Source: Candidatus Doudnabacteria bacterium
GTDB taxonomy: Bacteria; Patescibacteriota; Doudnabacteria; UBA920; 2-01-FULL-46-14
Direction: 5' to 3'
Length of the DNA stretch: 64,000 nucleotides
Assembly (NCBI GenBank): GCA_041497195.1
Contig: JBGQGB010000004.1
Span: forward strand, 1,770-65,769
Part shown: piece by piece, positions 1,481 through 29,727 of the stretch
How positions within the stretch are numbered: the stretch's first letter is position 1
Layout of the letters: each line of letters begins with the position of its first letter
Notes under the pieces: model-generated
The model's database searches: none
What the model saw: only the letters and a program-made list of their open reading frames with translations
What the model was told of the DNA's origin: nothing
Made by a program: the position numbers and the translations under genes

Positions 1481-2479
1481 ATGACATTGTTTTCTGCTTC
1501 AAAAAAAGTTCTTTTACTAGCGTTGCCATTCGCCTTTGGAATCGGAGTGGGGATATGGGGATACTCCAATGTTTTGAGCAAATCCTCAAACAGTTATTTT
1601 CAGGAGATCCGCGGCGGCGGCCAGCGTTTCACCAATCCGTTATTGGATTGTCAAGCGGGTAAAGATTATTTAAATTCGCTCGAACCTTTTAAAAATCACC
1701 TGACCCGGTTTTTGCAAGATGTCACAGTAAAAAACCATCTTAGCACAATGGCGACTTATTTCCGTGATTTGAACGATGGCCCGTGGTTTGGCATAAATGC
1801 ATCGGCGCTATTTAGTCCAGCCAGTCTGTTGAAAGTGCCGGTGATGATGGCGCTTTTCAAGCAAGCCGAGACTGATCCCGGACTTCTACAAAAAAAGGTC
1901 CGCTATACCGGGGACAGCACCAAATATTCTTATACCTACCCGCCCGCAAAAAATCTGGTTGTTGGCCAGGAATATACTGTTGATGAGTTGATTAGTCAGA
2001 TGATTATTTATTCTGATAATGCTGCCAAAGACTTTTTATTCCAGTACGTCAGCGATGAGCAGATTAAAGGAGTTTACGCGCAGGTCGGAGTGGAGGTCCC
2101 AAATGACCTGACCGGAACAGATCTGGACGTTACGTCGTATGCTTCGTTTTTCCGGATTCTCTACAATGCTTCTTATTTGGGAGTGGATATGTCGGAAAAA
2201 GCTTTGAATTTGTTACATCAGTCAACTTTTCACGACGGCCTTGTGGCCGGGGTGCCAGCGAATATTGTGGTGGCACATAAATTTGGGGAACGGGTGGCCG
2301 AGACCCCAGGCTTGCAGATAGGAGAAAAGCAACTGCATGATTGCGGCGTAGTCTATTATCCAAAAAATCCTTACCTGCTTTGCATGATGACTCGCGGCAG
2401 TGACTTCTCGAATCTCAGTGCAGCCATTCAGCAAGTTTCCCAAGCAGTGTATCAAGAAGTGGATAAGCAGAATCAATAA
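1481..2479 (+). CDS. class A beta-lactamase-like serine hydrolase with N-terminal membrane anchor
   Basis: N-terminal hydrophobic helix (LLLALPFAFGIGVGIW). S-x-x-K (SLLK), S-D-N (YSDNAAKDF) and a KTG-like HKFG box occur in the order expected for the class A beta-lactamase/PBP-like fold. Confidence 0.5.
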   Translation: MTLFSASKKVLLLALPFAFGIGVGIWGYSNVLSKSSNSYFQEIRGGGQRFTNPLLDCQAGKDYLNSLEPFKNHLTRFLQDVTVKNHLSTMATYFRDLNDGPWFGINASALFSPASLLKVPVMMALFKQAETDPGLLQKKVRYTGDSTKYSYTYPPAKNLVVGQEYTVDELISQMIIYSDNAAKDFLFQYVSDEQIKGVYAQVGVEVPNDLTGTDLDVTSYASFFRILYNASYLGVDMSEKALNLLHQSTFHDGLVAGVPANIVVAHKFGERVAETPGLQIGEKQLHDCGVVYYPKNPYLLCMMTRGSDFSNLSAAIQQVSQAVYQEVDKQNQ

Positions 2480-8945: not shown

Positions 8946-10697
8946 ATGGCTGACATACCAGAACCAATGCAAACTCCGCCCACCTCAGGTCCGGCGGGCA
9001 AAATATCAGGGCTTTTTAGCCGGTTCAACAAACCGCTTTGGTTAACTTTGATAATTTTGGCCGCGCTGACTTTGGTGTCGGTTGTTTATGTTTTGTTTTT
9101 CCGCGGGATAGGAATGAAACAAAGTTATAAGGGCGACCTGAAAGTCTCCGTCCAAGCTCCCGATTCTTCCCCAACCGGTTCGGAACTGACTTATGGCGTT
9201 GATATCGAGAATCTGACAAACGTGAAAATGACCAATGTGACCTTGGAAGTTGTGTATCCGTCCGGTTTCACTTTTGTGAATTCGACTCCTGATCCGCAGG
9301 AAAGCTCGGCCCGGACTTTTGTCTTTCCTGACCTCGCGTCCCAGGGCAAGCAGCATTTGGCGATTGTGGGCAGGCTCGACGGCTCGGTCCAGGAAATCAA
9401 GACCCTGACCGTAAAACTCCATTACATACCTGTAAATTTTCGTTCTTCATTTGAGACAGACGCGAGCGCCACGACTGTCATCGCGGCCCCGGCTCTGGCG
9501 ATGCACCTCGCCGCGCCCGCCCAGTTCATCACAGGTGAGCTGATCAATTACCAATTGCAAGTTACTAACGTAGCTACTCATCCTTTCTCCGGCGTAGGCT
9601 TGAAACTCTCTTACCCGGAAAAATTCCAGTTTAACAAAGCTGACAATCTCCAGCCAAACCAGACCTCAGACCGGGGGAGCGAATGGGATATCAGCAACAT
9701 TGATATCGGCCAGTCACTCAATTTTTCCGTGTTGGGACGTTTATCCCAGGAGCCGGGCAAAGAAGCTGCGGTCCAGGCGGAAATTTTTCTGAAAAGTCCG
9801 GACGGGAACGTGGTTTCCGCGGGACAGATTTCCGCGGTCACGCAGATGTTGCCGTCGCCTCTGATCCTGACCCAAAGGCTTATCAAGCCCCCGGATGTTT
9901 TTTTGCAGGGCCAAGATTTGAATTATGAGGTTGATTATCAGAATGTCAGCCAAGTGGGACTGACCAACGTCGTCGTCCAACTGGATTTTGATACACAGGT
10001 GTTCGATTATACCAAACTCCGCATAGAGAAAGGCCAGCTGAAAAACAATACCATTGTCTGGACCCCTGCCCAGCTTCCCGAGCTCCTGGCCATGCAGCCG
10101 AATCAGCAAGGGCAGTTCCAATTTAGCATCGCCTTGAAGGCCAACCTGGCCGGTAGTAGTGTAAAAAATTCCACCCTGCGCACGCGGCTACAATATACTT
10201 CGCAGGAACTCTCCGAGCCGATTTTCGGCAACACTCTGGAGTATAAAGTCCAGAGCGAAATGCAGGTTGTGGCGAGCGCGAAGCTTATTTCCGGAGCAAA
10301 CCCGCCGGTGGTGGGCCTCCCCACGACTTATCAGATCGATTTGACCGTGACCAACGGAGTGAACGACGTCAGTCAGGCGATTCTCTTGGCAACGATCCCG
10401 CGGACAGAGGCGCAGTTTTCTGTGGCTGCAGTCAATCCGCCGGAGGAGCAGGCCAACGTACAATTTGTCCCAGTGTCAGGGAGCTTGCGCTGGCAGCTCG
10501 GGGAAATTTTTGCACTGACCGGATCGTTTCATGATCCGCGGAAATTGTCCTTTCCCTTGACCGTCACGCCGACCGCCAGCGATAATCTCAACAGGCTGAC
10601 TTTGCTGCAAGGAATTCAGGCCAGCGGGACTGACAATTTTACCAGCAATGACCTCAAGTCAAATCAAATAGACTCTTTGGTTACCAGTAACCAATAG
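8946..10697 (+). CDS. membrane-anchored protein with DUF11-like repeated beta-sandwich domains
   Basis: N-terminal TM helix (LWLTLIILAALTLVSVVYVLFF). At least four repeats of the pattern L-x-Y-x-V/I-x-N-x-(S/T)-x...V-x-L matching the conserved repeat domain (DUF11) seen in surface proteins. Confidence 0.45.
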   Translation: MADIPEPMQTPPTSGPAGKISGLFSRFNKPLWLTLIILAALTLVSVVYVLFFRGIGMKQSYKGDLKVSVQAPDSSPTGSELTYGVDIENLTNVKMTNVTLEVVYPSGFTFVNSTPDPQESSARTFVFPDLASQGKQHLAIVGRLDGSVQEIKTLTVKLHYIPVNFRSSFETDASATTVIAAPALAMHLAAPAQFITGELINYQLQVTNVATHPFSGVGLKLSYPEKFQFNKADNLQPNQTSDRGSEWDISNIDIGQSLNFSVLGRLSQEPGKEAAVQAEIFLKSPDGNVVSAGQISAVTQMLPSPLILTQRLIKPPDVFLQGQDLNYEVDYQNVSQVGLTNVVVQLDFDTQVFDYTKLRIEKGQLKNNTIVWTPAQLPELLAMQPNQQGQFQFSIALKANLAGSSVKNSTLRTRLQYTSQELSEPIFGNTLEYKVQSEMQVVASAKLISGANPPVVGLPTTYQIDLTVTNGVNDVSQAILLATIPRTEAQFSVAAVNPPEEQANVQFVPVSGSLRWQLGEIFALTGSFHDPRKLSFPLTVTPTASDNLNRLTLLQGIQASGTDNFTSNDLKSNQIDSLVTSNQ

Positions 10698-17741: not shown

Positions 17742-19694
17742 ATGAAACAAAAATTTCACTTAAAATTTACAGCCTCCCTCCTGCTTTTGACCTTAGCGAT
17801 CAGCCTCGTCTTGGGGCTTTTCGGTGACGTACAACCTGCAAGCGCTCTTTTGGATGTGCCGGTGACAGGCGACGGCGGAGCTTTTGACCGCGTTGATAGC
17901 ATTGGGAGCATTGATACGAGCGGTTATGACCAGGGTCAGCTTCAAAATGAGATCACTCAGACTGCTGCTTCCTCAGCTATGAACGACGCGTTCCAGGCCA
18001 TGGATGGTCAATTTACTAGCAGCGTCGAAACTGACCTCGGAATAGGAAATCCTGCGTATTATGAAGACGCGCTGGTTGAGGGTAAATTCATCCCCGACCT
18101 TTACTCTAAATACAATGGGAGCGATTCTGTTCCTATTGGATGCAAAGGCCTGGGAGTCGATTGTATAGCAGCCACTGAGATGAGTTTGCCTATGAATAAT
18201 ATGACTACAGCCCAGCTCCAGCAGTTAGCTTCTTTGCAAGGTGCCACGGCGGCAAATTCTCCGGCAGCTAGTACTCAGTTGACCCAGGATATCCAAAGAA
18301 TTGTGGTAGGTGCATCTTCGCTGTTTCAACCCTCTATCGCCTGCGGCGGCATAGATGCCAATGCTTTGGATAAAGCCGCCAGTTATCTCGCTGCCAGCAC
18401 TGCCGGAGTGGTGGCCAACCAGATTGATCCTGGCAGCGGAATGAAGTTTTACCAGGATATGAGCAAATTGGGCAGCCCATACGCCACGAACCCTTTTTGG
18501 AAACTCCAGTTGCAGGACACTGCCATGCTCAACCAGTCCAATGCTCGCGGCGCAGCTGCCAACGAAATCAATTCCCCTGGTCTGAAGGCGACTCAAGCCA
18601 CGAGCACAGCCGCCACTCAATATAGTCAAATCCAGCGGACTTTATCGTTGGTTAAAAACGGGGAAGATAGCAGTGGTCAGGCCCTGTTCAATGTTGCGAT
18701 CAATGCGGTCAACGGGACCTACAATACCGCGACTTTTAGAAATTTCCTCATTCAATTGGTTTCCAACGAGCTGGCTAGAATCGCAGCTACGCAAATCAGC
18801 AAATTCGTGGGCTGGATTGCCAGCTTCATCGGCTCTGGGGTTGGCCTTGCGCAAAAAGACCAGTTTAGACTCTTGGCAGAAAATAGCGCCCGGACTATCG
18901 CTCAGGGCTTGATCCAGCATTTCGCAGTCAATTTATTTACTAGACTCAGTCAAAAGATTTTCCAGGGGCAGATTCTAGCTGAGAGTACGCGCTGCCGCCA
19001 GCCGAAGACGCTAGCTAATTTTACCCCCGCGGCCACGACTTTCACTGCTGCGGCCAATACGCCTATTCAAGCCTTTGGCGACACGGGTCCTACGCCGCCA
19101 ACGCCTCCTCCAGGCGGGCCGCCGAGCAGTATAATTTTTAACGCGCCAGCGAGCATCAACGCGGGTGGCACTGTGGTGCTCACTTGGGATGCCAGTGCCG
19201 CGCCCGCAGGCTCTACAGTCACTCTCACTGGCGGCGCCTTGAGTGGCGCGGTTCCGCTGGTCGGCTCGCGCAATGATACGCCGAGTGTCACCACGACCTA
19301 TACCCTGACCGTGACTGGGCCAGGCTTCAATCAGACTGTGCAGCGTACAGTCGTGGTCACTGCCGGGGGAGCGAGTGCTGTGACCTTTGACGTGCAGCCG
19401 CGCTCTGTGGTTGCCGGCGACACAGTCACTATCACCTGGGACGCTTCCGCCATCCCGAACGCGCAAGTGGAAATCTTCCCACTCTCTACATCCCTCCTAC
19501 CAGTTTCAGGTGCGCAGGATTTCACAATCAACGCCACGACTGTTTTCGTTTTTACAGTTGTCGACCCGTCGGGTGCAAATCCTGACATCGCCCGCACCAT
19601 TACTGTCACAGTAACGACTGGCGGAGGTTGCGGTGCAGTGATCTGTGTCCTCGGCGCTCAAACCACTAATCCGCAGTTTGGGGTGAGGGAATAA
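17742..19694 (+). CDS. large secreted protein with C-terminal tandem Ig-like/fibronectin-like repeats
   Basis: Signal peptide (MKQKFHLKFTASLLLLTLAISLVLGLFGDVQPASA). PTPPTPPPGGPP linker. Two homologous ~60-aa repeats (GGTVVLTWDASAAPAGSTVTLTGG... / GDTVTITWDASAIPNAQVEIFP...). Confidence 0.5.
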   Translation: MKQKFHLKFTASLLLLTLAISLVLGLFGDVQPASALLDVPVTGDGGAFDRVDSIGSIDTSGYDQGQLQNEITQTAASSAMNDAFQAMDGQFTSSVETDLGIGNPAYYEDALVEGKFIPDLYSKYNGSDSVPIGCKGLGVDCIAATEMSLPMNNMTTAQLQQLASLQGATAANSPAASTQLTQDIQRIVVGASSLFQPSIACGGIDANALDKAASYLAASTAGVVANQIDPGSGMKFYQDMSKLGSPYATNPFWKLQLQDTAMLNQSNARGAAANEINSPGLKATQATSTAATQYSQIQRTLSLVKNGEDSSGQALFNVAINAVNGTYNTATFRNFLIQLVSNELARIAATQISKFVGWIASFIGSGVGLAQKDQFRLLAENSARTIAQGLIQHFAVNLFTRLSQKIFQGQILAESTRCRQPKTLANFTPAATTFTAAANTPIQAFGDTGPTPPTPPPGGPPSSIIFNAPASINAGGTVVLTWDASAAPAGSTVTLTGGALSGAVPLVGSRNDTPSVTTTYTLTVTGPGFNQTVQRTVVVTAGGASAVTFDVQPRSVVAGDTVTITWDASAIPNAQVEIFPLSTSLLPVSGAQDFTINATTVFVFTVVDPSGANPDIARTITVTVTTGGGCGAVICVLGAQTTNPQFGVRE

Positions 19695-19698
19695 GTTT

Positions 19699-22600
19699 AT
19701 GTTAATGAAGGTCGCAAGAAAAGTTTTTATGAGTAAAGTAGGTATTTTTGCAATATCTATATTATTTTTGTCAGTTTTGTTTCCTCTTGGCGCGCAGGCC
19801 GCTACATTTCAGGCAACTCAAGTCAGCTGGTCAGTACACACCAATGCTACGATTTATCGGGTGGTGGTCGGTGGATCGGCCACGATCCAAGTTCAGGCGC
19901 AAAGTACCCCAGCTCTCGCCGTCGGAGACATAATCGTGACTCCCGGAGGTTCCAACAGAACGATTGCCGCATTTTACGCGGCATATTTTGGTGCGGGGTG
20001 TAGCTTATCATGCGCAGCTGAAGATGAGAGTTCCCACGTTTCTAATGACCCGTTCAGCGTGACCGTGACTACCGATCCTTTCTACAATCCGCCTATTCCA
20101 GCTGGCCAAACCATGGCGACCAGAATCATCCAAGTTTTTCCAGCGGTGGATGTCTCATTTGCGGGAGACGGCAATTTTTTTCAAAATGCGGCGCAGATAA
20201 CTTTGCAAATCTTCAGCGACCAAACTGCACTCAATCAAGCCGCGCAAGCCGCTTGTACGGCCAACCCGAATCAGGTCGGTTGCAATCCCGATGGGACGGT
20301 CAGCAATTCAAGTGTCGGCGGTGCGGCTACTGCGGCAACCACTGGTATATCAAATCCCCCCGGGGTGGGGGATGGACTTCTCGGCATTCTTATTAGCATA
20401 GTCAACATTGTACTCGGGGTAATCATCGCGATTTTACGTTTCCTGGTGTGGCTCATCGGCACTGTCATTGCCGTGCCTTTGCTTGAGTCGACCCTGCAGT
20501 TGCAGGCTGGTAATCTGGCGGGCGGGGTGATTTTGACTGGCTGGACTCTGGTGCGGGATGTGGTCAATATGTTCTTCATCCTATTTCTGATTATTATTGG
20601 CCTCGGTACTATCCTGAAAATCGAGAGCTACAATTACAAAAAGCTCCTGGTCAATCTGATTATGATGGCGCTTTTGGTCAATTTCAGCCTACTCATCGGG
20701 CGCATTATTATCCAGATTGCTGACACGGCTCAGTTCACTTTTCTGCCTTTGGGCACAGGCATAACAGGAGTGAGGGCCCTGTTTCAAAATTTGGTGACCG
20801 GGCCAAAGGAATTTACTGATCCTATCATGATTTTAACCACGGATAAAAATGTGGCGATGGCCTCGACCTTTACAATGCTTTTTCAGTTTATATTTGAAGC
20901 CTCGGTGATCGTGACTTTTTTGGCCATGGCTGTTTTGATGCTCATCAGGACAGTAATGCTCTGGATTTTGCTCATCCTCTCGCCTGTGGCGTATGCTTTC
21001 TACGTTTTGCCAGCCACAGCCAGCATTGCCAAGAAATGGTGGTCAGAGTTTATCAAATACGCCCTATTTGCTCCAATTTTTGCTTTCTTTTTGCGGCTCA
21101 CATTTGTCCTCTATGACCAAGGCCTCAATATTTTTCCTACGACAGCAGCCTCCTTTGCCGGTCGTCCACCCAATTTGATAGGGGCAATAGACGCGCTTTC
21201 TCAGCTACCCGGGGGATTTAATTTCACTCAGGCTTTACAGCTGCTTTTGATCTACATAGTGGTGCTGGCGTTTCTCTGGGCTGGCATGATTGTGGCCAAA
21301 AGCATGGGAGTAATGGGAGCGAGTGGGATCATGAGCATTGGGGAGCGGGGCTTGCGGAGCGGATTTGGATTGAAGCAAATCGGTGGCGGTGCTACAGGTC
21401 TGGTGGCGCGAACATATTCGGGTTGGGTTGGGCGAAAAATTGGCGCGGCTAGTCAGAAGGGAGAACAAGCAGCGAAGGAGGCTCAAAAGGCAGAGCGCCG
21501 GGCAGCCGTACTCCGTGCCGGCGGAAAAATTGTCGAAGCGAAACAGGCCGAGGCACAGGCGACCGCCGCCAGATCTAGACAGCGAGCGGCTTCACTATCC
21601 AGCGGTGGGTGGCGGGCTTTGTCCCTTTTGAATCCGCATGTTGTCAAAGAGGCATGGAAGAAGCGACGGGAAGAAAAAGAATTGCGTGCTTATGGACCGG
21701 CAGTTGGCCATATGCAAGACACTTTCAATCGGATTATGCCGACCGAGTTTCTGAAGTGGAACCGGATGTTGGCTGGTCAATTTGGCAAAAAAACCCCACA
21801 CGGTCTTGTAGGGGAACGTGCTGTGGTTGCCAAAGAAGCTGAAGAGCTTCTCAAGGGTATTCGGACTAGAGAGGATGCGGCAAGAGTCGCGGGCGACGCG
21901 TTTAAATCAGGGGATCATGATGAAATCATGGCTGCCCTGAAAGTCTTGCAGCATGGGAATTGGCAGGATGATTATATGAACCTCGAGGGTAAAACATTCA
22001 GCCCCCTGAAGTATCTGGATCATATTACCGAACAGATGAAAAAGTCAGGATTTTCTAAAGAGGAAATTACAACAATTTTGGATGACCTGAAAGAAACTGG
22101 CGAGCAAACAGGTCGGATTCGTGCTTATGGTTATACCACAGAAGATCCTGACGGCCATATTCGGGCTGCCAATGATCTGTCTTTTTATCAACAACTGAGA
22201 GGTGACGATTTGGCTAAAGTATTCGAGAACCAGGCGGAAAAATTCAAGTTGGCTTTTGACGAAAGCGGAGTGGATGAGTTTGGTAAACAGGCGCGAAGCT
22301 TTGAAAATGCGGCGGCCCAAGCCAGAGCGGGGCAGTCTTTTGACCAAATTTCTACAGTTAAATATATTCCAGATGCGGAGGTGCAGGACGAGAATTCAGA
22401 ATACCATGGTCGTACGGATGTGACGATTCGAGATGCCATGGTTGCGCGAAGGTTTATGGACGAAGCACATATCAAACTCCAGCGCGGTAATGCCGGGGTG
22501 CATGCCAGAAACATCGAAGCCGCAATCATCGTTGACCAGGATCCGGAAAAAGGCTGGACAAACCAGAATGCTTTGGGAAAAATGATGGCACACGAAATCG

Positions 22601-22977
22601 GACCGAATATTATCGAGTCAATCACCGGTCGTATTCACGAGAGTCAAGGTCGCTTGCTCTACGCTTTTGGCGCGCTCCGAGACAAACAGACTGGTAAATG
22701 GACGCCCCCAGATATTAATATTGGGAGTAGAACAGATGTGCAAATCCATGGTATGGCGAGGAACCCAGAAGAGGAGCAAGTCTTAAAGGATCAGCGTGAT
22801 GCTCATCGCACCGCTTGGAACAAAATCATGGACACCCAGAAACTTAACGAAAAGATGTTTAACGCCATTATTGGAAGTCAAAAACTGTTTACTGAAGAAC
22901 AGCGCGATTATTTTAAACAACAATTTAATACTTATGCAACAAACAACCCGAATGAGAGACTTCAACAAATTCCTTAA
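19699..22977 (+). CDS. VirB6/TrbL-like polytopic membrane protein with large charged C-terminal extension
   Basis: Signal peptide and ~190-aa extracytoplasmic domain, then ~7 hydrophobic helices between aa ~215 and 560 in a TrbL/VirB6-like arrangement, then a ~500-aa hydrophilic K/E/R/A-rich tail. Sits upstream of the PrgI-like and VirB4-like genes. Confidence 0.5.
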   Translation: MLMKVARKVFMSKVGIFAISILFLSVLFPLGAQAATFQATQVSWSVHTNATIYRVVVGGSATIQVQAQSTPALAVGDIIVTPGGSNRTIAAFYAAYFGAGCSLSCAAEDESSHVSNDPFSVTVTTDPFYNPPIPAGQTMATRIIQVFPAVDVSFAGDGNFFQNAAQITLQIFSDQTALNQAAQAACTANPNQVGCNPDGTVSNSSVGGAATAATTGISNPPGVGDGLLGILISIVNIVLGVIIAILRFLVWLIGTVIAVPLLESTLQLQAGNLAGGVILTGWTLVRDVVNMFFILFLIIIGLGTILKIESYNYKKLLVNLIMMALLVNFSLLIGRIIIQIADTAQFTFLPLGTGITGVRALFQNLVTGPKEFTDPIMILTTDKNVAMASTFTMLFQFIFEASVIVTFLAMAVLMLIRTVMLWILLILSPVAYAFYVLPATASIAKKWWSEFIKYALFAPIFAFFLRLTFVLYDQGLNIFPTTAASFAGRPPNLIGAIDALSQLPGGFNFTQALQLLLIYIVVLAFLWAGMIVAKSMGVMGASGIMSIGERGLRSGFGLKQIGGGATGLVARTYSGWVGRKIGAASQKGEQAAKEAQKAERRAAVLRAGGKIVEAKQAEAQATAARSRQRAASLSSGGWRALSLLNPHVVKEAWKKRREEKELRAYGPAVGHMQDTFNRIMPTEFLKWNRMLAGQFGKKTPHGLVGERAVVAKEAEELLKGIRTREDAARVAGDAFKSGDHDEIMAALKVLQHGNWQDDYMNLEGKTFSPLKYLDHITEQMKKSGFSKEEITTILDDLKETGEQTGRIRAYGYTTEDPDGHIRAANDLSFYQQLRGDDLAKVFENQAEKFKLAFDESGVDEFGKQARSFENAAAQARAGQSFDQISTVKYIPDAEVQDENSEYHGRTDVTIRDAMVARRFMDEAHIKLQRGNAGVHARNIEAAIIVDQDPEKGWTNQNALGKMMAHEIGPNIIESITGRIHESQGRLLYAFGALRDKQTGKWTPPDINIGSRTDVQIHGMARNPEEEQVLKDQRDAHRTAWNKIMDTQKLNEKMFNAIIGSQKLFTEEQRDYFKQQFNTYATNNPNERLQQIP

Positions 22978-23001
22978 ATAAAACAAAAAACATCTTAAGG
23001 A

Positions 23002-24432
23002 ATGAGTATATATATGGATATAAAAGACGAAAAAAAAATTCCTATTTCAGCAGCCCCCCCAAATCAGGTAACTAGCCCAGAACAGATAGTTAGCATTACT
23101 TGGGATAATTTTAGCGTGCTTCAACCAGAATGGTTGGAAGATGAGAATATCTTGTATCAACTGAAGCTTTTTGTGCAGGACATATCGGATAGTGGCGACG
23201 CATCTGATGCAAGTCAGGCTTTCGTGCTTTTGCATCAACTTTTGCAAAAATTGCCGCTCCTGGTGCAGAATCACCCCGATGTTTATCGGGAATATCTTCG
23301 ATTGCTGACTGTTTTAAAGGCTTGTTTTTTGTCCTTGATGCCGGATGGGGACATTCATAATTTTCTCCGAGATGAGTTGACTCTGTCTTTGGAAGTCCAG
23401 GATTTTGACATTAAGGACAAGCTGAATGATTTATTGCTGGTCTATAGACAATTTCCAGACGTACAAGCAAATTTTGCACAGGAACTATTGAAGCCAATTG
23501 AAGAAAACCAAGAATATTTAGGCACTGATCCAATTGTCATCCGCGGTCATGACGATGAACAATTGCCCAGAATTGCTAACTGGCTGGTAGATTATACCCA
23601 GTTTGTAGTAAGCAAGACCAAGCTGGGGGCATCGGTCGTTAGAGCAGGGGGTTTGGAGCGGGCGACGTATCTTTCGCAAAGTCCGAACTCCCGGCGTCTT
23701 ACTGAAGACGAGCGAGATATTTTGAAGAGGCTTTTAGAATTGCACGATTGGTTGAAAGCTTTTGTTCCAGTCCCACAGGCTAGCGAGGCTACTGCGGCCC
23801 TACCGAATTATATAACTACCCAACGAGAGAAGATTAGTGTGCCCCCTCCTCCCCGGCCAGTACAACAACGCCCGCAAGCCCCTGTTTATAGAGCGCCGGC
23901 AATTCCCCCACAGCCAGCTGCTCCACAGCCGCGGGTCACTCCGAGTCTTGTGGTGCCGAGGACTCAGGTGCCACCAGCCCAGCCGCGGCCATCAGTTTTG
24001 CCGCCAGCGCCAAAACCCGCTGCTACCTCAGTGCGGCCGTCTATGACGTTTGCTCCGACGCCGCCCCAGGCTGCAGCGCCCTCTCCCGCGCCCCAATCTT
24101 CGGCTAATGAAGATTTGTACCGTTCCACCCTTGAGGAGCTGGCAAAGATGAGGCAGAAAGAGGCTGCCCAAACGCCCGGAAGATCAGTGAGTGCTAGCCC
24201 CAAACCCTCGGGCCCGACCATCGTGCCGCTGTCTGCAGGGCCAGGTCGGCCTGCGGCCTCAGTGGCCCAGGGGCCAATGCGCCCGATGAAACCAATGGAA
24301 CCTTTTTCGGTAAATGAAGCTCTGGTCCACGGGGATTTGAATCCTGATCTCAATGATCGCGGGGAAATGGTGTCAGGAGACAAAGATGACGTGGCAAAGA
24401 AATTGAAGGATTTGGAAGACAGGGTCAAATAG
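23002..24432 (+). CDS. hypothetical protein with central proline-rich low-complexity region
   Basis: No TM segment. A ~270-aa N-terminal globular part is followed by PPPPRPVQQRPQAPVYRAPAIPPQPAAPQPR... No known motif recognised. Confidence 0.4.
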   Translation: MSIYMDIKDEKKIPISAAPPNQVTSPEQIVSITWDNFSVLQPEWLEDENILYQLKLFVQDISDSGDASDASQAFVLLHQLLQKLPLLVQNHPDVYREYLRLLTVLKACFLSLMPDGDIHNFLRDELTLSLEVQDFDIKDKLNDLLLVYRQFPDVQANFAQELLKPIEENQEYLGTDPIVIRGHDDEQLPRIANWLVDYTQFVVSKTKLGASVVRAGGLERATYLSQSPNSRRLTEDERDILKRLLELHDWLKAFVPVPQASEATAALPNYITTQREKISVPPPPRPVQQRPQAPVYRAPAIPPQPAAPQPRVTPSLVVPRTQVPPAQPRPSVLPPAPKPAATSVRPSMTFAPTPPQAAAPSPAPQSSANEDLYRSTLEELAKMRQKEAAQTPGRSVSASPKPSGPTIVPLSAGPGRPAASVAQGPMRPMKPMEPFSVNEALVHGDLNPDLNDRGEMVSGDKDDVAKKLKDLEDRVK

Positions 24433-24454
24433 TTAGAGGGCCTTTGTTTACGTT

Positions 24455-25381
24455 ATGCCAATGGCAGATCTCGACCGGTTGAAATCAAAAATTCAAAATT
24501 CCACTATCCTCTCCGACAGCGAAAAAAAGGAGTGGCTTTTTTTGTTGCCGAAAATGACGCCGCCCCAGATGCAAGAGCTCAATGAGGTGCTATCTTCTCA
24601 TAAGTCGCTACAGTCACAATCAGTACCTGCGCAAAAATTGCCAGCTACTGAGGAAAAATCGGCAGTTAGCTCGCTTCAGACAAATGTAAAGCCGTTGATG
24701 CCCAATCAGCCGGCCACGCCAACCCCGATGACAAAACCTGCCGGGCCGGCTGCTATCCCTGCTGACGCACGATATTCAGAAGAACCGACTAAACCGTTAA
24801 CTACCGCGCCGAAGCCGTCTGTCCCTGCATCGGTAAAACCAATTGTAGTACAGCCGATAGACTCAAACCGCAGACCAGAGACCAAGCCCGGAGTAAACAT
24901 TTTGCCAGACAAAGTAAAAATCGCAGCCAAGCCGCTTGATTCGTTCAAGCCGGTAAACAGCGCGATGGTCCCGCCGCGAGACGCTTCAGTCAAACAATCG
25001 CTAACCGCGCCAGCCGGCATGAGCAAGACCAAACTTGATCCAGTGGTCAAGCCAGGGAGCGGCCAGAGCGTGAAAGCCGTCCAGGCCGCCTCGGACGAGT
25101 TGGGGAAATTGCGCGCTTTGGCTGTTGCTGATTTGCGGCAGGCCCCGTCTGTGTACGTGTTCCTCGAAGATCTGGCTAAAAAGATGAATGAGCTGAAGAA
25201 ATACCGCGAGCTCAGTCTGGAACAAATCACTTCCAGTTTTGAACAGAGTCCGTTGTATCATACTTATCTGGAAGCTGGCCTAAAGATCATGGACAAGCAG
25301 GAATTTGACCGGTTGTCGCATTCCGAATTTGAGGCCATGGCTGATTTTCGGGCTTCTTTGCGCAAACTTTTGAGCAAGTAA
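24455..25381 (+). CDS. hypothetical proline-rich protein
   Basis: 308 aa, P/K/A/S-rich central region (PATPTPMTKPAGPAAIPADA...) and a C-terminal helical segment. No known motif. Confidence 0.4.
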   Translation: MPMADLDRLKSKIQNSTILSDSEKKEWLFLLPKMTPPQMQELNEVLSSHKSLQSQSVPAQKLPATEEKSAVSSLQTNVKPLMPNQPATPTPMTKPAGPAAIPADARYSEEPTKPLTTAPKPSVPASVKPIVVQPIDSNRRPETKPGVNILPDKVKIAAKPLDSFKPVNSAMVPPRDASVKQSLTAPAGMSKTKLDPVVKPGSGQSVKAVQAASDELGKLRALAVADLRQAPSVYVFLEDLAKKMNELKKYRELSLEQITSSFEQSPLYHTYLEAGLKIMDKQEFDRLSHSEFEAMADFRASLRKLLSK

Positions 25382-25661
25382 GGGTTTTTTGTCCCTATAA
25401 CCGCCAAGAACCCAGGCCCCTAGCGGGGATTTTTTGTATATTTGGAGGATTGTGCTATAATAAAAACACTTTAAAAGTGAAGATTTGAAAGCAAAACTCA
25501 AACTAAGGGTTAAATTTTCAGTTCTCAATTTGCAATTTTCAATGCCTGAAGTTTCAAAAAGAAGCGCAGGAACTTACTTTGATATTTCAAAAGATTACCA
25601 ACTCGTTAAAGCGAGCTAGCCGGATTGAATTTAATGAAAATTGAGAATTTGAAATTGAAAA

Positions 25662-26138
25662 TTGTTTTCCATGCAGTCATATAGCCTCCCACAATTCATT
25701 GAGGTGGAGGACAAGATCATCGGGCCTTTGGGCATCAAGCAGTTTTTGTTTCTGCTTTGCGGCGGTCTCATATGTTTGGGCATTTGGAGCGTTGCTCAAT
25801 TCAGTATTTTTTTCTTCCTCCTGGCAGCGCCGGTGATGATAGTCGTCATCGCCTTGGCGTTTGGCAAGTTTAACGGCCGGCCAGTAATGAGCAATGTCGC
25901 CGGGCTAATCAAATTCCTCTCCTCACCGCGTATACGGGTCTACCAGCGTACTGGCGACAAGGAATTGTCAGAGGTGACCAAAGCACCGCGCAAAGTTGAA
26001 ATGGTGGAGACCGAAGCTCCGGAGCAGGTCGACAGCCGGTTGAAGCGCCTGGCGTATCTGCTGGACCAGCAGTCAGCGGAAGAAAAGCGGCTCATCGAGA
26101 CCGGGCAAATGAAACAGAAATGGTTGAACCAAATCTAG
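25662..26138 (+). CDS. PrgI-family (VirB3-like) small membrane protein of Gram-positive-type T4SS
   Basis: Pattern IEVEDKIIGPLGIKQFLFLLCGGLICLG then two TM helices then PRIRVYQ closely parallels the PrgI/TcpD family (…LTKRQLICF…PKIRVYQ…), as recalled from family alignments. Confidence 0.65.
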   Translation: MFSMQSYSLPQFIEVEDKIIGPLGIKQFLFLLCGGLICLGIWSVAQFSIFFFLLAAPVMIVVIALAFGKFNGRPVMSNVAGLIKFLSSPRIRVYQRTGDKELSEVTKAPRKVEMVETEAPEQVDSRLKRLAYLLDQQSAEEKRLIETGQMKQKWLNQI

Positions 26139-26144
26139 CTAGCC

Positions 26145-26885
26145 ATGGAAATGCAGACGAACAAATTGCGCAGAAACAAACCGACTGAGTCCACTCAGAA
26201 GTATTTGAATATTTCGCAAATCAAAGAGGGGGTCATCGTGATGAAAGACAAAAGTTTGCGCTCCATTCTGGTGGTGTCCTCCACCAATTTCGCTCTCAAA
26301 TCCGAAGAAGAACAAAATGCTTTGATCGCCGCCTATCAGAATTTTTTGAATTCCCTGGATTTTCCCATCCAGATTTTGATTCATTCGCGGGTGCTGGATA
26401 TCGACGGGTATTTGACCAAGCTGCGCGGCCTTGCTTCGGGTCAGACCAACGAGCTGCTGCGCATCCAGATGAGCGAGTATATCGAGTATGTCGGCAAGTT
26501 GGTGGAATACGCGAGCATCATGACCAAAACTTTTTATGTCGTGATTCCTTATTCAGTTGCAGTGGCCACCAAAGAAACTTTTTTCGGCAGAATGAAGAAG
26601 GTACTCAATCCCGCCGCTACCATCACCGCCAACCAGGAAGATTTTCAAAAGCAGAAACTCAAACTGGAAGAGCGGATCGAACACATCGCCGGCTCCCTGG
26701 GCGGCATGGGTTTGCGCAGCATGGTGCTCAACACTCAGGAACTGATTGAACTTTTGTATACTTCTTATAATTTTGAGACTGCATCCCCTCTGCATCCGGA
26801 GGCGATGGGTGAGATTCAGCTGACTGACTCGACCCCGGATCTGGCCATGCCCAGCAGGTCAGGAGGGCTGAAGGTGGGGACCTAA
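26145..26885 (+). CDS. N-terminal domain of VirB4/TraE/PrgJ-like conjugal ATPase, encoded as a separate ORF
   Basis: ISQIKEGVIVMKDKSLRSILVVSSTNFALKSEEEQNALIAAYQNFLNSLDFPIQI matches the conserved N-terminus of Firmicutes VirB4 homologues (IKDIxDGIIITKDxxYVKIxEVxPINFxLxSxxEQ). Ends with TAA at 26883-26885. The next ORF is in a different frame. Confidence 0.6.
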   Translation: MEMQTNKLRRNKPTESTQKYLNISQIKEGVIVMKDKSLRSILVVSSTNFALKSEEEQNALIAAYQNFLNSLDFPIQILIHSRVLDIDGYLTKLRGLASGQTNELLRIQMSEYIEYVGKLVEYASIMTKTFYVVIPYSVAVATKETFFGRMKKVLNPAATITANQEDFQKQKLKLEERIEHIAGSLGGMGLRSMVLNTQELIELLYTSYNFETASPLHPEAMGEIQLTDSTPDLAMPSRSGGLKVGT

Positions 26886-26919
26886 AAAAAGCAGGCAGTT
26901 TTTGTTAGCATAAAATTTT

Positions 26920-28731
26920 ATGGCCGAAAATCCGCAACCAAAAAAGCCCACGAAAAAAAATTCCGCCCATCAACTGCTGGAGGCAGAACGGGCTTTTCGC
27001 AAAGGCCTGACTTCGGTCAAAGATCTGATTGCCCCTTCGGCTGTGAGGATTGAGGCGTCCTATCTGCAAATTTCCGGCAAATTTGCCCGGACGTTTTTCA
27101 TTTTGACCTACCCGCGCTACCTCTCGAGTAATTGGCTAGATCCGATCATCAACCTGGATGTGCCCATGGATGTGTCGTTTTTTGCCTACCCGATGGAGTC
27201 AGACCAAGTCATGAAAAAACTGCGTGACAAGGTCGGCCAGCTGCAGGCGTCCATCGCGATCAACGAGGACAAAGGCGAGGTCCGCGACCCAATGCTGGAA
27301 ACGGCTTATCACGACGTGGAAGAACTGCGCGACAAATTGCAGCAAGGTACTGAGCGATATTTCCGATTTTCGCTGTATTTCACGATTTACGCCACCGATC
27401 CGGTCAGCTTGGACAAAATTTCCTCGAACATTGAGTCAATGCTCTCGTCCAAACTGGTCGTGGCCAAGCCCGCGATTCTGCAGGCTGAGGCCGGATTCAA
27501 TTCCACTCTGCCCTTGGGAGATGACGAGCTGGCTATTTCCACCAACATGAATACCGGGCCGTTGTCCACGACGTTTCCTTTCGTGTCGTCGGAACTGACG
27601 AGCAATGACGGCATCTTGTACGGGATCAATCGGCACAACAACAGTCTGATTTTATTCGACCGGTTTCAGATGGAAAACGCCAACTCCGTGGTGTTTGCCA
27701 AATCCGGTTCCGGGAAATCCTACGCCGTCAAGCTGGAGATTTTGCGGTCGTTGATGCTGGGGGTGGATGCGATCGTGATTGACCCGGAAAACGAATACAA
27801 ACATTTGACCGAAGCGGTCGGCGGCGCTTTTCTCAACGTTTCTCTCAATTCGCAGTCGCGCATCAATCCGTTTGATTTGCCCAAAGCCATCGAGGGTGAG
27901 GCGCCGGAGGACGTACTGCGTTCTGCGGTGATCAACCTCATGGGACTGATGAACTTGATGCTGGGCAAGCTCGACCCGACCGAGGAAGCGATCATGGACC
28001 GGGCTTTGTGGGAAACTTACGCGACGCGCGATATCACGCCGCAGGTGGATTTTACCAACGCAGAGATGCCCACCATGGCCGAACTGGTGAACGTGCTCGG
28101 CGGCATCGCCGGGGGCGAGAGTCTGGCGCAGCGATTGACCAAATATACGGAAGGGACGTTTTCCGGGATTTTCAACCAGCCGACGAATATCAATTTGGAC
28201 AACCAACTGGTCGTGTTTTCGGTGCGGGATTTGGAGGATTCCCTGCGGTCCATCGCTATTTATGTCATTTTGACGTTTATCTGGAATGAGGTCCGCTCGA
28301 TTTTGAAAAGGCGGATTTTGGTCATTGACGAAGCCTGGTGGATGATGCAGCACGAGGATTCGGCCAGATTTTTGTATGGCATCGCCAAGCGGGCCCGCAA
28401 ATACTATTTGGGGGTCACCACCATCAGCCAGGATGTCCAGGATTTTTTGCAAAGCCCGTACGGCAAGCCAGTGGTGACCAACTCGTCCATTCAGCTCCTG
28501 ATGAAGCAGTCGCCCACAGCGATTGACATCGTGGCCGAAACTTTTTATCTGACTGAGGGCGAAAAATATCTCTTGCTGGAGTCTGAGGTGGGGGAAGGGA
28601 TATTTTTTGCCGGGCTCAAGCATGTCGCTATCCGAGTGGTGGCCTCGTACACCGAGGATCAGATTATCACCACTGATCCGCGGCAGCGCATCGAAATTGA
28701 GAAAGCCAAAGAACAGCTGGGAGGGACCTAA
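26920..28731 (+). CDS. VirB4/TraE/PrgJ-like T4SS ATPase, central and C-terminal ATPase part
   Basis: LIAPSAVRIEASYLQISGKFARTFFILTYPRYLSSNWLDPIINLDVPMDVSFF block. Walker A VVFAKSGSGKSYAVK. VIDPENEYK. Walker B ILVIDEAWWMM. TTISQD. 603 aa. Confidence 0.85.
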   Translation: MAENPQPKKPTKKNSAHQLLEAERAFRKGLTSVKDLIAPSAVRIEASYLQISGKFARTFFILTYPRYLSSNWLDPIINLDVPMDVSFFAYPMESDQVMKKLRDKVGQLQASIAINEDKGEVRDPMLETAYHDVEELRDKLQQGTERYFRFSLYFTIYATDPVSLDKISSNIESMLSSKLVVAKPAILQAEAGFNSTLPLGDDELAISTNMNTGPLSTTFPFVSSELTSNDGILYGINRHNNSLILFDRFQMENANSVVFAKSGSGKSYAVKLEILRSLMLGVDAIVIDPENEYKHLTEAVGGAFLNVSLNSQSRINPFDLPKAIEGEAPEDVLRSAVINLMGLMNLMLGKLDPTEEAIMDRALWETYATRDITPQVDFTNAEMPTMAELVNVLGGIAGGESLAQRLTKYTEGTFSGIFNQPTNINLDNQLVVFSVRDLEDSLRSIAIYVILTFIWNEVRSILKRRILVIDEAWWMMQHEDSARFLYGIAKRARKYYLGVTTISQDVQDFLQSPYGKPVVTNSSIQLLMKQSPTAIDIVAETFYLTEGEKYLLLESEVGEGIFFAGLKHVAIRVVASYTEDQIITTDPRQRIEIEKAKEQLGGT

Positions 28732-28734
28732 CCT

Positions 28735-29727
28735 ATGCCAGTCTTGGAAGACGAAGAAATTGACAATGATGTAGGGGATGACAGGAGAGCGCGTTCCTAC
28801 CGAGAAGAACAGCAAAAAAAAGCCCAGCTGCAGCAGCAACGACAGGAGGAAGAATTGAGGCGGCAGGAAGAACTGCAGATGCGGCAAGCCCAAGACCGCC
28901 AGAGAAAGCAGCAAGCCGCCAAAGATCTGCAAAGACGAGTGGCCATCAAAGCGCTCGAAGGAAACGAGGCTGGAGCAGTTGAAGAGTTGGCCAAACATCC
29001 GGGCACCGCGGCAAAAGTCGCCGGGAAAAAAATAGTTCGACAGGCCTTGCTGGCCCTGCTCGAATGGGCCTTGCCATTTCTATTGATTGTTTTGGGGATA
29101 ATTTTGGTGGTCGTGATCGTGATTGTGGTGGCAGTTTATGAGTGCAACTCGACCTCCTGGCATGGCCGCCTGGCGCAAGTCAGTTCTACGGTCGTGGGAT
29201 TTTTTGGAGGCCCTGATTTTTGCGCATATTTCAAAGATTTCAAAGGCGTCGGGACTTTCATTGACCAAGCCCAGATTCCGTCGCCAGGAGGCCCCGGGGG
29301 TGGGCGGTGTGTACCAGTCACGTCCGGCCCAGCCACGGTAGCAAATTTGAGTCAGACTTGTTTTGGTGCCAACGCCCAGCAAGCTTCCAGTATCGCTAAC
29401 GTGGAAAGTGGCGGCAACCCCCTTGCCCATGGTGACCAATGTGCAGATGGAAGTTACGCTTCGTGGGGCCTATTTCAAATCAACATAAGCGCAAATAGCA
29501 TTGCGGGGCTTGATTGTCCAAGTGCATTCGACAAGCCGGCAAATTCCGCCAGTCTCATTGACCCAGTCGCAAATATTTACGATTGTCATGTCGTTAATCC
29601 TGCTCTCTACAGCGCCTGCGTTTCAGCTGCCCGTGATCCGGCAACCAATATTCAAGCGGCTTGCCAAATTTCCAGTAATGGGACGAACTGGCGACCCTGG
29701 GGAGCAAACTCGATTTGTAATTTTTAA
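28735..29727 (+). CDS. T4SS-associated VirB1-like lytic transglycosylase (coiled-coil, TM helix, SLT-like domain)
   Basis: N-terminal Q/E/R-rich coiled coil. TM helix (LPFLLIVLGIILVVVIVIVVAVY). Extracytoplasmic domain with ESGGNP ... GSYASWGLFQIN, resembling the catalytic ES / GLMQ motifs of family-1 lytic transglycosylases. 8 Cys. Confidence 0.5.
   Translation: MPVLEDEEIDNDVGDDRRARSYREEQQKKAQLQQQRQEEELRRQEELQMRQAQDRQRKQQAAKDLQRRVAIKALEGNEAGAVEELAKHPGTAAKVAGKKIVRQALLALLEWALPFLLIVLGIILVVVIVIVVAVYECNSTSWHGRLAQVSSTVVGFFGGPDFCAYFKDFKGVGTFIDQAQIPSPGGPGGGRCVPVTSGPATVANLSQTCFGANAQQASSIANVESGGNPLAHGDQCADGSYASWGLFQINISANSIAGLDCPSAFDKPANSASLIDPVANIYDCHVVNPALYSACVSAARDPATNIQAACQISSNGTNWRPWGANSICNF

What the first reader, a model, noticed from the sequence alone, without database searches (positions are those of the whole stretch)
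26145..28731. VirB4-like ATPase encoded as two adjacent ORFs in different reading frames
The conserved VirB4 N-terminus (IKEGVIVMKDKSLRSILVVSSTNFALKSEEEQ...) is in ORF 26145..26885 (frame 3, stops at TAA 26883). The continuation (LIAPSAVRIEASYLQISGKFARTFFILTYPRYLSSNWL..., Walker A/B) is in ORF 26920..28731 (frame 1, with an in-frame TAA at 26911 just upstream). Combined length (~850 aa) equals a typical full-length Firmicutes VirB4. The 34-nt gap contains A7 and T5 homopolymers. Either this is a genuinely split two-polypeptide VirB4, which would be unusual and is testable, or a recent frameshift/pseudogenisation or assembly error inactivating the system.
Basis: partly seen in the sequence, partly recalled or inferred. 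Interest (0 to 1): 0.7.

Follow-up and report, generated by a model that had tools for sequence, protein, structure and literature searches.

The report
Natural two-gene VirB4 of Patescibacteria
The "broken" secretion-system ATPase is two intact neighbouring genes, a small TrsD-like protein resembling the VirB4 N-terminus and a shortened VirB4 ATPase; this arrangement is standard in ultra-small Patescibacteria and was already published, so the finding is real but ordinary.

Summary
ORF1 (26145-26885, 246 aa) and ORF2 (26920-28731, 603 aa) lie in different frames, 34 nt apart. They match full-length VirB4 profiles collinearly and without overlap (CD1110 positions 9-163 and 179-732).

It is not a frameshift, pseudogene or assembly error:
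- All three frames carry stops in or at the gap.
- Five independent assemblies have the identical junction.
- The 120 closest homologues of each ORF are stand-alone (about 230 aa and about 600 aa).
- In 71 of 80 species-representative loci the two genes are adjacent but never fused. All three frame offsets occur, and spacing runs from a 4-nt overlap to about 450 nt. Two Doudnabacteria loci have unrelated genes inserted between them.
- In the other 9 loci (titled Peribacteria or Gracilibacteria) the ATPase gene is not within reach.

The same split is seen in Staphylococcus plasmid pGO1 (TrsD + TrsE), in the same gene order. Quinonero-Coronel et al. 2025 (PMC12102498) already report TrsD homologues, remotely homologous to the VirB4 N-terminus, as the most abundant T4SS component of Patescibacteria. 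They report most as next to virB4, with Gracilibacteria the exception, and one as listed essential in Ca. S. epibionticum.

Verdict: a real, functional two-cistron arrangement that is already known, so interest is low. That the two proteins assemble in trans is inferred, not shown.

The parts
25671..26138 (+). PrgI / VirB3-like small membrane protein, the first gene of the apparent operon. The mechanical ORF begins at TTG 25662. Gene callers on identical contigs start it at the ATG equivalent to 25671, giving 155 aa.
   Evidence: Pfam PF12666 PrgI, E 4.7e-8, 33.9 bits against a cutoff of 27. One long hydrophobic stretch at residues 19-72, compatible with a two-helix hairpin. Called as a 155-aa PrgI gene on L083-L086. 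It occupies the same position as trsC in pGO1 and prgI in pCF10.
26145..26885 (+). ORF1: stand-alone TrsD-like / 'TraC-like' protein (246 aa) homologous to the first ~170-180 residues of full-length VirB4. It has no transmembrane segment and no ATPase motifs.
26886..26919 (.). 34-nt intercistronic spacer. Together with the ORF1 stop it carries stop codons in all three frames: TAA 26883, TAG 26906 and TAA 26911. No consensus promoter or terminator lies inside it.
   Evidence: Sequence, frame scan, promoter/terminator scan. Identical in five independent assemblies.
26920..28731 (+). ORF2: VirB4-family ATPase (603 aa) that lacks the N-terminal ~180-220 residues of full-length VirB4. It retains the second half of the N-terminal domain and the whole P-loop C-terminal domain.
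   Evidence: NCBIfam CD1110 family, E 7e-108, 361.8 bits (> cutoff 325), profile 179-732 of 752. Pfam P-loop_TraG, AAA_10, DUF87 and CagE_TrbE_VirB. PDB 4ag5 VirB4 C-terminal domain, E 1.7e-44. BLASTP to pGO1 TrsE E 4e-39 with residue 35 aligned to TrsE 36, and to pCF10 PrgJ E 1e-40 with residue 29 aligned to PrgJ 221.
27697..27720 (+). Walker A motif (AKSGSGKS, ORF2 residues 260-267).
   Evidence: Motif located by script. It lies within the P-loop_TraG/AAA_10 match.
28315..28341 (+). Walker B region (ILVIDEAWW, ORF2 residues 466-474).
   Evidence: Motif located by script. D741/E742/A743/W744/W745 are invariant in the 12-sequence alignment A2.
28735..29727 (+). Membrane-anchored lysozyme-like protein (a VirB1-like cell-wall hydrolase candidate) starting 4 nt after ORF2.
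   Evidence: Pfam SLT_3, E 3.8e-9, 37.3 bits against a cutoff of 27. One hydrophobic segment at residues 100-142. Its position is comparable to the hydrolase genes near the VirB4 genes of pGO1 (trsG, two genes after trsE) and pCF10 (directly after prgJ).
19699..22977 (+). 1092-aa polytopic membrane protein upstream in the same orientation. It is a possible VirB6-like translocon component. This is inference only.
   Evidence: Seven hydrophobic segments by a Kyte-Doolittle scan. No Pfam or NCBIfam hit.

Best explanation
ORF1 and ORF2 are two intact genes that are translated separately and are probably co-transcribed. They belong to the chromosomal type IV secretion system (T4SS) of a patescibacterium whose closest relatives are Doudnabacteria. 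ORF1 is the TrsD-like ('TraC-like', PF26593) module and corresponds to the first ~170-180 residues of a canonical VirB4. ORF2 is a VirB4 ATPase that begins where ORF1's homology ends. The apparent operon order is prgI/virB3-like, trsD-like, virB4, then a virB1-like hydrolase, which resembles trsC-trsD-trsE-(trsF)-trsG of plasmid pGO1.

Shown:
- Both genes are intact and conserved.
- They are collinear and complementary to full-length VirB4 profiles.
- They are never fused in relatives.
- The split point matches pGO1 TrsD|TrsE.
- The ORF1 model resembles R388 VirB4.

Inferred (about 0.6): ORF1 binds ORF2's remaining N-terminal domain and the VirB3-like PrgI protein at the membrane. This would rebuild in trans the N-terminal domain that in R388 anchors the VirB4 ring to VirB3/VirB8 and links protomers. 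The ATPase would then power assembly or secretion by a T4SS reported as essential for epibiotic growth in Saccharibacteria.
For: Complementary profile coordinates appear in three independent full-length VirB4 models. Controls behave as expected: pGO1 TrsE likewise starts at CD1110 position 183, whereas pCF10 PrgJ covers positions 1-751.

ORF2 aligns from its residue 35 to TrsE residue 36, and from its residue 29 to PrgJ residue 221.

Lengths of relatives: the best 120 ORF1 homologues are 185-341 aa and the best 120 ORF2 homologues are 575-664 aa. In 1.84 billion representative proteins there are 3370 hits, and the best 150 are 132-443 aa, none of ATPase length.

Among 80 GTDB-representative loci, 71 have ORF1-like then ORF2-like as separate ORFs. 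Frame offsets 0/1/2 occur in 15/22/34 loci, and spacing runs from -4 (ATGA overlap) to about 450 nt. Unrelated genes sit between the pair in L009 (23S_rRNA_IVP family) and L019 (PDDEXK_3 family).

Stops are present in all three frames at the junction, and the junction is identical in 5 independent assemblies.

Literature: TrsD homologues are the most abundant T4SS component in Patescibacteria. 1664 of 2272 lie next to virB4, Gracilibacteria are the exception, and the homologue is listed as essential in Ca. S. epibionticum ML1 (PMC12102498). VirB4 N-terminal domains contact VirB3/VirB8 and the membrane (PMC12857230).
Against: Similarity of ORF1 to pGO1 TrsD itself is weak. The NF041427 score is 25 bits against a cutoff of 200. 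The hhalign E-value is 5.6e-4 at 30% probability. BLASTP is not significant.

In 9 of 80 loci the ATPase gene is not within 6 kb, so tight stoichiometric coupling is not universal. No SD-like sequence is evident by eye in the 25 nt upstream of ORF2.
Confidence: 0.85

Rival explanations
1. A recent frameshift or nonsense mutation (pseudogenisation), or a homopolymer-length sequencing/assembly error, broke a single ~850-aa virB4 gene.
For: The gap contains A7 and T5 runs, and the two ORFs are in different frames.
Against: No single indel can fuse the ORFs. ORF1's frame stops at 26883. ORF2's frame has stops at 26869 and 26911. The third frame stops at 26906. The junction is identical, with 0 mismatches over the region, in three Logan run assemblies and two NCBI MAGs. 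All 71 adjacent orthologous loci are split at the same place, in all three frame combinations. No fused homologue was found. Both ORFs are under evident purifying selection, with 52 invariant columns in A1 and 73-85% identity among ORF2 homologues.
Confidence: 0.01
2. Programmed recoding (ribosomal frameshift or stop read-through at the A-rich junction) yields a single fused VirB4 polypeptide.
For: The sequence A AAA AAG directly follows the ORF1 stop. It resembles a known slippery heptamer (own knowledge).
Against: The heptamer lies after the TAA stop, and every frame is closed within the gap. Orthologues show all three frame offsets, overlaps, gaps of hundreds of nt, inserted unrelated genes, and unlinked genes in Peribacteria/Gracilibacteria. 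None of this is compatible with a conserved recoding signal.
Confidence: 0.01
3. ORF1 is an independent accessory T4SS protein that only descends from a VirB4 N-terminus, for example an assembly factor, regulator or membrane adaptor acting on other partners. On this view it does not rebuild a VirB4 N-terminal domain, and ORF2 works as a naturally short VirB4.
For: TrsD has no assigned function (PMC12102498). The genes are unlinked in 9 of 80 loci. Some family members carry extra C-terminal extensions of 100-200 aa. Similarity to VirB4 N-termini is only E 1e-5 to 2e-9.
Against: The homology is strictly collinear and non-overlapping with the part ORF2 lacks. The pair is adjacent in 71 of 80 loci; 7 of these show an ATGA overlap, which suggests translational coupling (inference). 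The two genes co-occur across the phylum.
Confidence: 0.13

Closest known systems
TrsD homologue + VirB4 pairs of the Patescibacteria T4SS (Quinonero-Coronel et al. 2025, Microb Genom, PMC12102498)
   Same: This is the same protein families, phylum, adjacency and gene neighbourhood (PrgI/VirB3-like upstream, chromosomal location). No relaxase or coupling protein was detected among the neighbouring ORFs scanned. The Gracilibacteria exception is also the same. The window locus is simply one more instance.
   Different: [quoted passage not shown] The passages read here do not state that the patescibacterial VirB4 lacks exactly that portion. The complementary profile coordinates shown here make the fission reading explicit.
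TrsD / TrsE of Staphylococcus aureus plasmid pGO1 (and TraD/TraE of the pSK41/pIP501 group), MPF-FATA class
   Same: The gene order is comparable: trsC (small upstream gene in the VirB3 position), trsD (227 aa), trsE (672 aa, DUF87 ATPase), and a cell-wall hydrolase two genes further on. TrsE starts at the same VirB4 profile position as ORF2, CD1110 183 versus 179. ORF2 residue 35 aligns to TrsE residue 36.
   Different: ORF1 is only remotely similar to TrsD and is in fact closer to VirB4 N-terminal profiles than TrsD is. The pGO1 system is a plasmid conjugation machine with a relaxase and coupling protein. The window locus is chromosomal, and neither was detected nearby.
Full-length VirB4 ATPases (pCF10 PrgJ, CD1110 family; R388 TrwK; Agrobacterium VirB4)
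   Same: ORF1 plus ORF2 together cover the full-length profiles collinearly. ORF2's C-terminal domain matches the solved VirB4 C-terminal domain 4ag5. The ORF1 model resembles TrwK.
   Different: These are one polypeptide of about 790-830 aa, whereas here there are two polypeptides. The break lies inside the N-terminal domain, not at the boundary between the N- and C-terminal domains.
VirB3-VirB4 fusions (own knowledge: e.g. Helicobacter CagE, Campylobacter) and the actinobacterial SCO6880-family protein
   Same: These show that the modules around the VirB4 N-terminus are shuffled between polypeptides in evolution. The SCO6880 profile matches the PrgI-like ORF (profile positions 13-79) and the ORF2 N-terminal domain (positions 363-476).
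   Different: Those are fusions or a different partition. PMC12102498 reports no VirB3-VirB4 fusions in Patescibacteria. The SCO6880 lead was not followed up.

Membership tests
VirB4 ATPase, CD1110 family (NCBIfam NF045971) | Whole-protein score above the curated cutoff (325 bits) | tested here: met
   ORF2 scores 361.8 bits, E 7.4e-108.
VirB4 ATPase, CD1110 family (NCBIfam NF045971) | Walker A and Walker B P-loop NTPase motifs in the C-terminal domain | tested here: met
   AKSGSGKS at residues 260-267 and ILVIDEAWW at 466-474. P-loop_TraG/AAA_10/DUF87 Pfam hits. 4ag5 VirB4 C-terminal domain, E 1.7e-44.
VirB4 ATPase, CD1110 family (NCBIfam NF045971) | Complete N-terminal domain (profile positions 1 to ~180) within the same polypeptide | tested here: not met
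   The ORF2 match starts at profile position 179, and ORF2 residue 29 aligns to PrgJ residue 221. The missing part is matched by ORF1 (profile 9-163, E 1.6e-5). pGO1 TrsE has the same deficit.
TrsD/TraD family conjugative transfer protein (NCBIfam NF041427) | Score above the curated cutoff (200 bits) | tested here: not met
   ORF1 scores 25.3 bits, E 1.1e-5, profile 5-152 of 201. pGO1 TrsD itself scores 227.6 bits. The relationship is remote homology only. hhalign of A1 against TrsD gives E 5.6e-4.
TrsD/TraD family conjugative transfer protein (NCBIfam NF041427) | A small (~200-250 aa) soluble protein encoded immediately upstream of an N-terminally short VirB4 and downstream of a VirB3-like gene | tested here: met
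   The window order is PrgI-like, ORF1, ORF2. pGO1 has trsC-trsD-trsE.
Pfam PF26593 'TraC-like' | Significant match to the Pfam model | tested here: inconclusive
   The precomputed annotation lists PF26593 (unmarked, E <= 1e-5) for the identical protein and for all 120 homologues. The local Pfam-A scan returned no family for ORF1, presumably because the model is absent from that copy.
Patescibacteria-clade T4SS (PMC12102498) | The VirB4 closest relatives are patescibacterial, and the TrsD homologue and PrgI/VirB3 homologue lie next to virB4 | tested here: met
   Searches show Doudnabacteria, Parcubacteria and 'Patescibacteria group' records. Searches show the gene order. No phylogenetic tree was built.
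Patescibacteria-clade T4SS (PMC12102498) | Chromosomal location without an adjacent relaxase or coupling protein | tested here: met
   Flanking genes are housekeeping: IleRS, RecO, UvrD, KsgA, RecG, ClpB-like, GatA/B, ThrRS, DnaE, FtsW and PurA. No relaxase or VirD4 family was hit among the ORFs scanned. Several ORFs (17742-25381) have no family hit at all.
Functional VirB4 complex assembled from two chains | Physical association of ORF1 with ORF2 (and with the VirB3-like protein) | not testable with these tools

The most novel reading that the evidence does not exclude
The TrsD-like protein and the short VirB4 are the two halves of one ancient fission inside the VirB4 N-terminal domain. That fission would be shared by pGO1-type Firmicutes plasmids and the whole Patescibacteria clade, which would point to a pGO1-like ancestor for the patescibacterial T4SS. 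The detached N-module would work in trans, so its stoichiometry or timing relative to the ATPase ring can be tuned, and the two genes can even be unlinked, as in Gracilibacteria. The published descriptions read here imply this but do not state or test it.
Probability: 0.5. Interest if true: 0.3.

Novelty: already known. Interest (0 to 1): 0.15.

Why it matters
The result matters mainly as a caution for annotation. In Patescibacteria and in pGO1/pSK41-type plasmids, a short 'hypothetical' gene in front of an N-terminally short virB4 is a conserved partner gene. It should not be flagged as a pseudogene or 'repaired' as a frameshift. The T4SS it belongs to is reported as essential for the epibiotic lifestyle of cultivated Saccharibacteria. 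Knowing that the VirB4 N-terminal module is a separate chain is therefore useful for anyone modelling or purifying that machine. As a discovery it adds little beyond PMC12102498.

Tried and rejected
- Local Pfam-A scan of ORF1: no hit, although precomputed annotation lists PF26593.
- BLASTP of ORF1 against pGO1 TrsD: not significant.
- hhalign of alignment A1 against the single PrgJ sequence: no signal. The NCBIfam profile hits were relied on instead.
- Profile search of A1 against PDB sequences: only chance coiled-coil matches. A fold search was needed.
- Full-text search for 'split VirB4': 0 papers.
- Main text of Guglielmini et al. 2014 (PMC4027160): it does not mention TrsD by name. The statement about TrsD/VirB4 N-terminal homology is therefore cited from PMC12102498 only.
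- Linked-chain model: I built a 12-row paired alignment of ORF1 + (GGGGS)5 + ORF2 (A2) to model both chains together.
- P0066 (341 aa) was checked as a possible fusion. Its extra tail is unrelated to ORF2.
- Recoding at the A-rich junction was considered and rejected.
Full report
**1. Observation**

- ORF1 runs 26145..26885 (246 aa, TAA at 26883).
- ORF2 runs 26920..28731 (603 aa), shifted by +1 relative to ORF1.
- A 34-nt spacer separates them. It contains an A-run (A7, counting the last two bases of the stop codon) and a T5 run.

NCBIfam profiles confirm the homology claim and make it more precise.
- ORF1 matches only the N-terminal part of three independent full-length VirB4 models: CD1110 family positions 9-163 of 752, TIGR00929 5-170 of 792, and Mbov_0397 family 92-233 of 894. 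The E-values run from 2e-9 to 1.6e-5.
- ORF2 matches the rest of the same models: CD1110 179-732 (E 7e-108, 361.8 bits, above the curated cutoff of 325), TIGR00929 239-724, and Mbov_0397 292-892.
- The two matches are collinear and do not overlap.

Two controls behave as expected. The single-chain VirB4 of pCF10 (PrgJ, 796 aa) covers CD1110 positions 1-751. TrsE of pGO1 starts at position 183, like ORF2. Walker A and B motifs lie in ORF2, and its C-terminal half matches the solved VirB4 C-terminal domain 4ag5 (E 1.7e-44).

**2. Not an artefact or a pseudogene**

- *The junction itself.* ORF1's frame ends at TAA 26883. ORF2's frame is closed at 26869 and 26911. The third frame is closed at 26906. 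No single indel in a homopolymer can join the ORFs.
- *Independent assemblies.* The exact ORF2 protein is encoded on seven public contigs. Five loci were retrieved: three Logan assemblies of different sequencing runs and two NCBI MAGs. All have a junction identical to the window, with 0 mismatches over the ORF1-ORF2 region held.
- *Homologue lengths.* ORF1 has 2700 homologues in the 5.8-billion-protein set, and the best 120 (54-100% identity) are 185-341 aa. The 341-aa outlier carries an unrelated tail. The best 120 ORF2 homologues (73-100% identity) are 575-664 aa. A profile search of 1.84 billion cluster representatives finds 3370 ORF1-family proteins, and the best 150 are 132-443 aa, none of ATPase length.
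- *Comparative loci.* Eighty loci were fetched from one-genome-per-species contigs.
  - In 71, the ORF1 homologue is followed by a separate ORF2 homologue and is never fused.
  - Frame offsets of 0, 1 and 2 occur in 15, 22 and 34 loci.
  - Spacing ranges from a 4-nt ATGA overlap to about 450 nt.
  - In two Doudnabacteria loci, unrelated genes have been inserted between the pair: a 23S_rRNA_IVP-family gene in L009 and a PDDEXK_3-family gene in L019.
  - In 9 loci, all titled Peribacteria or Gracilibacteria, no ORF2 homologue lies within the 6 kb fetched.

These facts also exclude programmed frameshifting or read-through.

**3. What it is**

The surrounding genes are chromosomal housekeeping genes: IleRS, RecO, UvrD-like helicase, KsgA, RecG, a ClpB-like AAA+ protein, GatA/GatB, MiaA, ThrRS, DnaE, FtsW and PurA.

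All close homologues come from Patescibacteria, chiefly Doudnabacteria.

The local gene order is as follows:
- a PrgI/VirB3-like small membrane protein (25671-26138)
- ORF1
- ORF2
- a membrane-anchored SLT_3 lysozyme-like protein (28735-29727)
- two further small membrane-anchored proteins

A hairpin plus T-run and a TGCTATAAT element lie between 25381 and 25662. No consensus promoter or terminator falls between ORF1 and ORF2. Co-transcription from upstream of the PrgI-like gene is therefore likely, though this is inference.

The Staphylococcus plasmid pGO1 has a comparable order: trsC, trsD (227 aa), trsE (672 aa ATPase), trsF, then the hydrolase trsG. ORF2 aligns to TrsE from residue 35 to residue 36 (E 4e-39), so the two ATPases begin at the same place. 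Against PrgJ, ORF2 residue 29 aligns to residue 221.

ORF1 is only remotely similar to TrsD itself: the NF041427 E-value is 1.1e-5 and far below cutoff, and hhalign gives E 5.6e-4.

**4. How it most likely works**

Two points are shown: there are two intact conserved cistrons, and together they contain the sequence equivalents of one VirB4.

The rest is inferred. In the R388 machine, the VirB4 N-terminal domains connect protomers, embed in the membrane and contact VirB3 and VirB8 (review PMC12857230). By analogy, the ORF1 protein is expected to dock onto the remaining N-terminal domain of ORF2 and onto the adjacent VirB3-like protein, completing the membrane-anchoring module of the ATPase ring. 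Seven of the 71 adjacent loci show ATGA overlaps, which suggests translational coupling and roughly equimolar synthesis there (inference). The unlinked genes in the Peribacteria/Gracilibacteria-titled loci show that adjacency is not obligatory.

I could not test the interaction.

**5. Comparison with what is known**

This arrangement is already in the literature. Quinonero-Coronel et al. 2025 (PMC12102498) surveyed 3035 patescibacterial genomes and reported the following.
- Gracilibacteria are the notable exception to that adjacency.
- TrsD otherwise occurs only in the pGO1 subclass of the MPF-FATA class.
- TrsD has no assigned function.
- The homologue in Ca. S. epibionticum ML1 is listed as essential.

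Wang et al. 2023 (PMC10633639) describe that T4SS as essential and as lacking recognisable coupling and relaxase proteins.

My comparative results reproduce these statements independently, including the Gracilibacteria exception. Pfam also already has a family for the module (PF26593 'TraC-like').

The only increment here is the explicit demonstration of three points:
- the patescibacterial VirB4, like TrsE, lacks precisely the segment that the upstream protein resembles
- the break point coincides with that of pGO1
- insertions and all frame phases occur between the two genes

**6. Verdict**

The claim that the split is unusual does not hold, because it is the norm for this phylum and is already published. 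Novelty is 'already known' and interest is low (0.15).

The most novel reading still open is that this is a single ancient fission shared with pGO1-type plasmids, and that the N-module acts in trans with tunable stoichiometry. I put this at about 0.5 probability and moderate interest.

Noticed in passing
L009:6685-7142 and L019:6679-7124: In two Doudnabacteria genomes an unrelated small gene sits between the TrsD-like gene and virB4. L009 has a 23S_rRNA_IVP (four-helix-bundle) family gene, and L019 has a PDDEXK_3 family gene. The intervening DNA has low GC (0.32-0.36). These look like small mobile or selfish insertions into the intercistronic spacer.
   Followed up: partly
L054, L068, L069, L072, L074, L076, L078, L079, L080: In loci titled Peribacteria or Gracilibacteria, the TrsD-like gene has no VirB4-like gene on either strand of the fetched locus, which held up to 6 kb on each side. 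This agrees with the Gracilibacteria exception reported in PMC12102498. What lies next to the gene there was not examined, and Gracilibacteria use an alternative genetic code.
   Followed up: partly
window 25662-26138 and 26920-28731: The actinobacterial SCO6880-family profile (NF042935, 477 positions) matches the PrgI/VirB3-like ORF at profile positions 13-79. It also matches the N-terminal domain of ORF2 at positions 363-476. This suggests that in Actinobacteria a VirB3-like hairpin and part of the VirB4 N-terminal domain are combined in one protein, a different partition of the same modules.
   Followed up: no
window 25417-25461: Between the 308-aa ORF ending at 25381 and the PrgI-like gene there is a GC hairpin followed by a T-run (CCCCTAGCGGGG-ATTTTTT, about 25417-25435). 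An extended -10-like TGCTATAAT follows at about 25453-25461. This is compatible with a terminator followed by the promoter of the prgI-trsD-virB4 operon. The consensus scan did not list it as a promoter.
   Followed up: partly
window 17742-25381: Four consecutive same-strand ORFs upstream of the PrgI-like gene (650, 1092, 476 and 308 aa) have no Pfam or NCBIfam hit. The 1092-aa protein has about 7 hydrophobic segments, making it a VirB6-like candidate. The 650-aa protein has an N-terminal signal-like segment and a C-terminal hydrophobic segment. They are probably lineage-specific T4SS or surface components.
   Followed up: partly
proteins P0252, P0256, P0259, P0288 and others: A sizeable minority of TrsD-like family representatives are 300-443 aa, with the conserved module at the N-terminus and an extra C-terminal extension of 100-200 aa of unknown nature.
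   Followed up: no
window 26145-26885: The local Pfam-A library returns no family for ORF1. The precomputed annotation of the identical protein lists PF26593 'TraC-like'. The model is apparently missing from the local copy, which is worth knowing when reading a 'no Pfam hit' result.
   Followed up: partly
[not shown]
   Followed up: no
window 1481-2479 and 8946-10697: A Beta-lactamase2-family protein (E 4.6e-37) and a DUF11/cohesin-like repeat surface protein lie among housekeeping genes in this small-genome bacterium.
   Followed up: no
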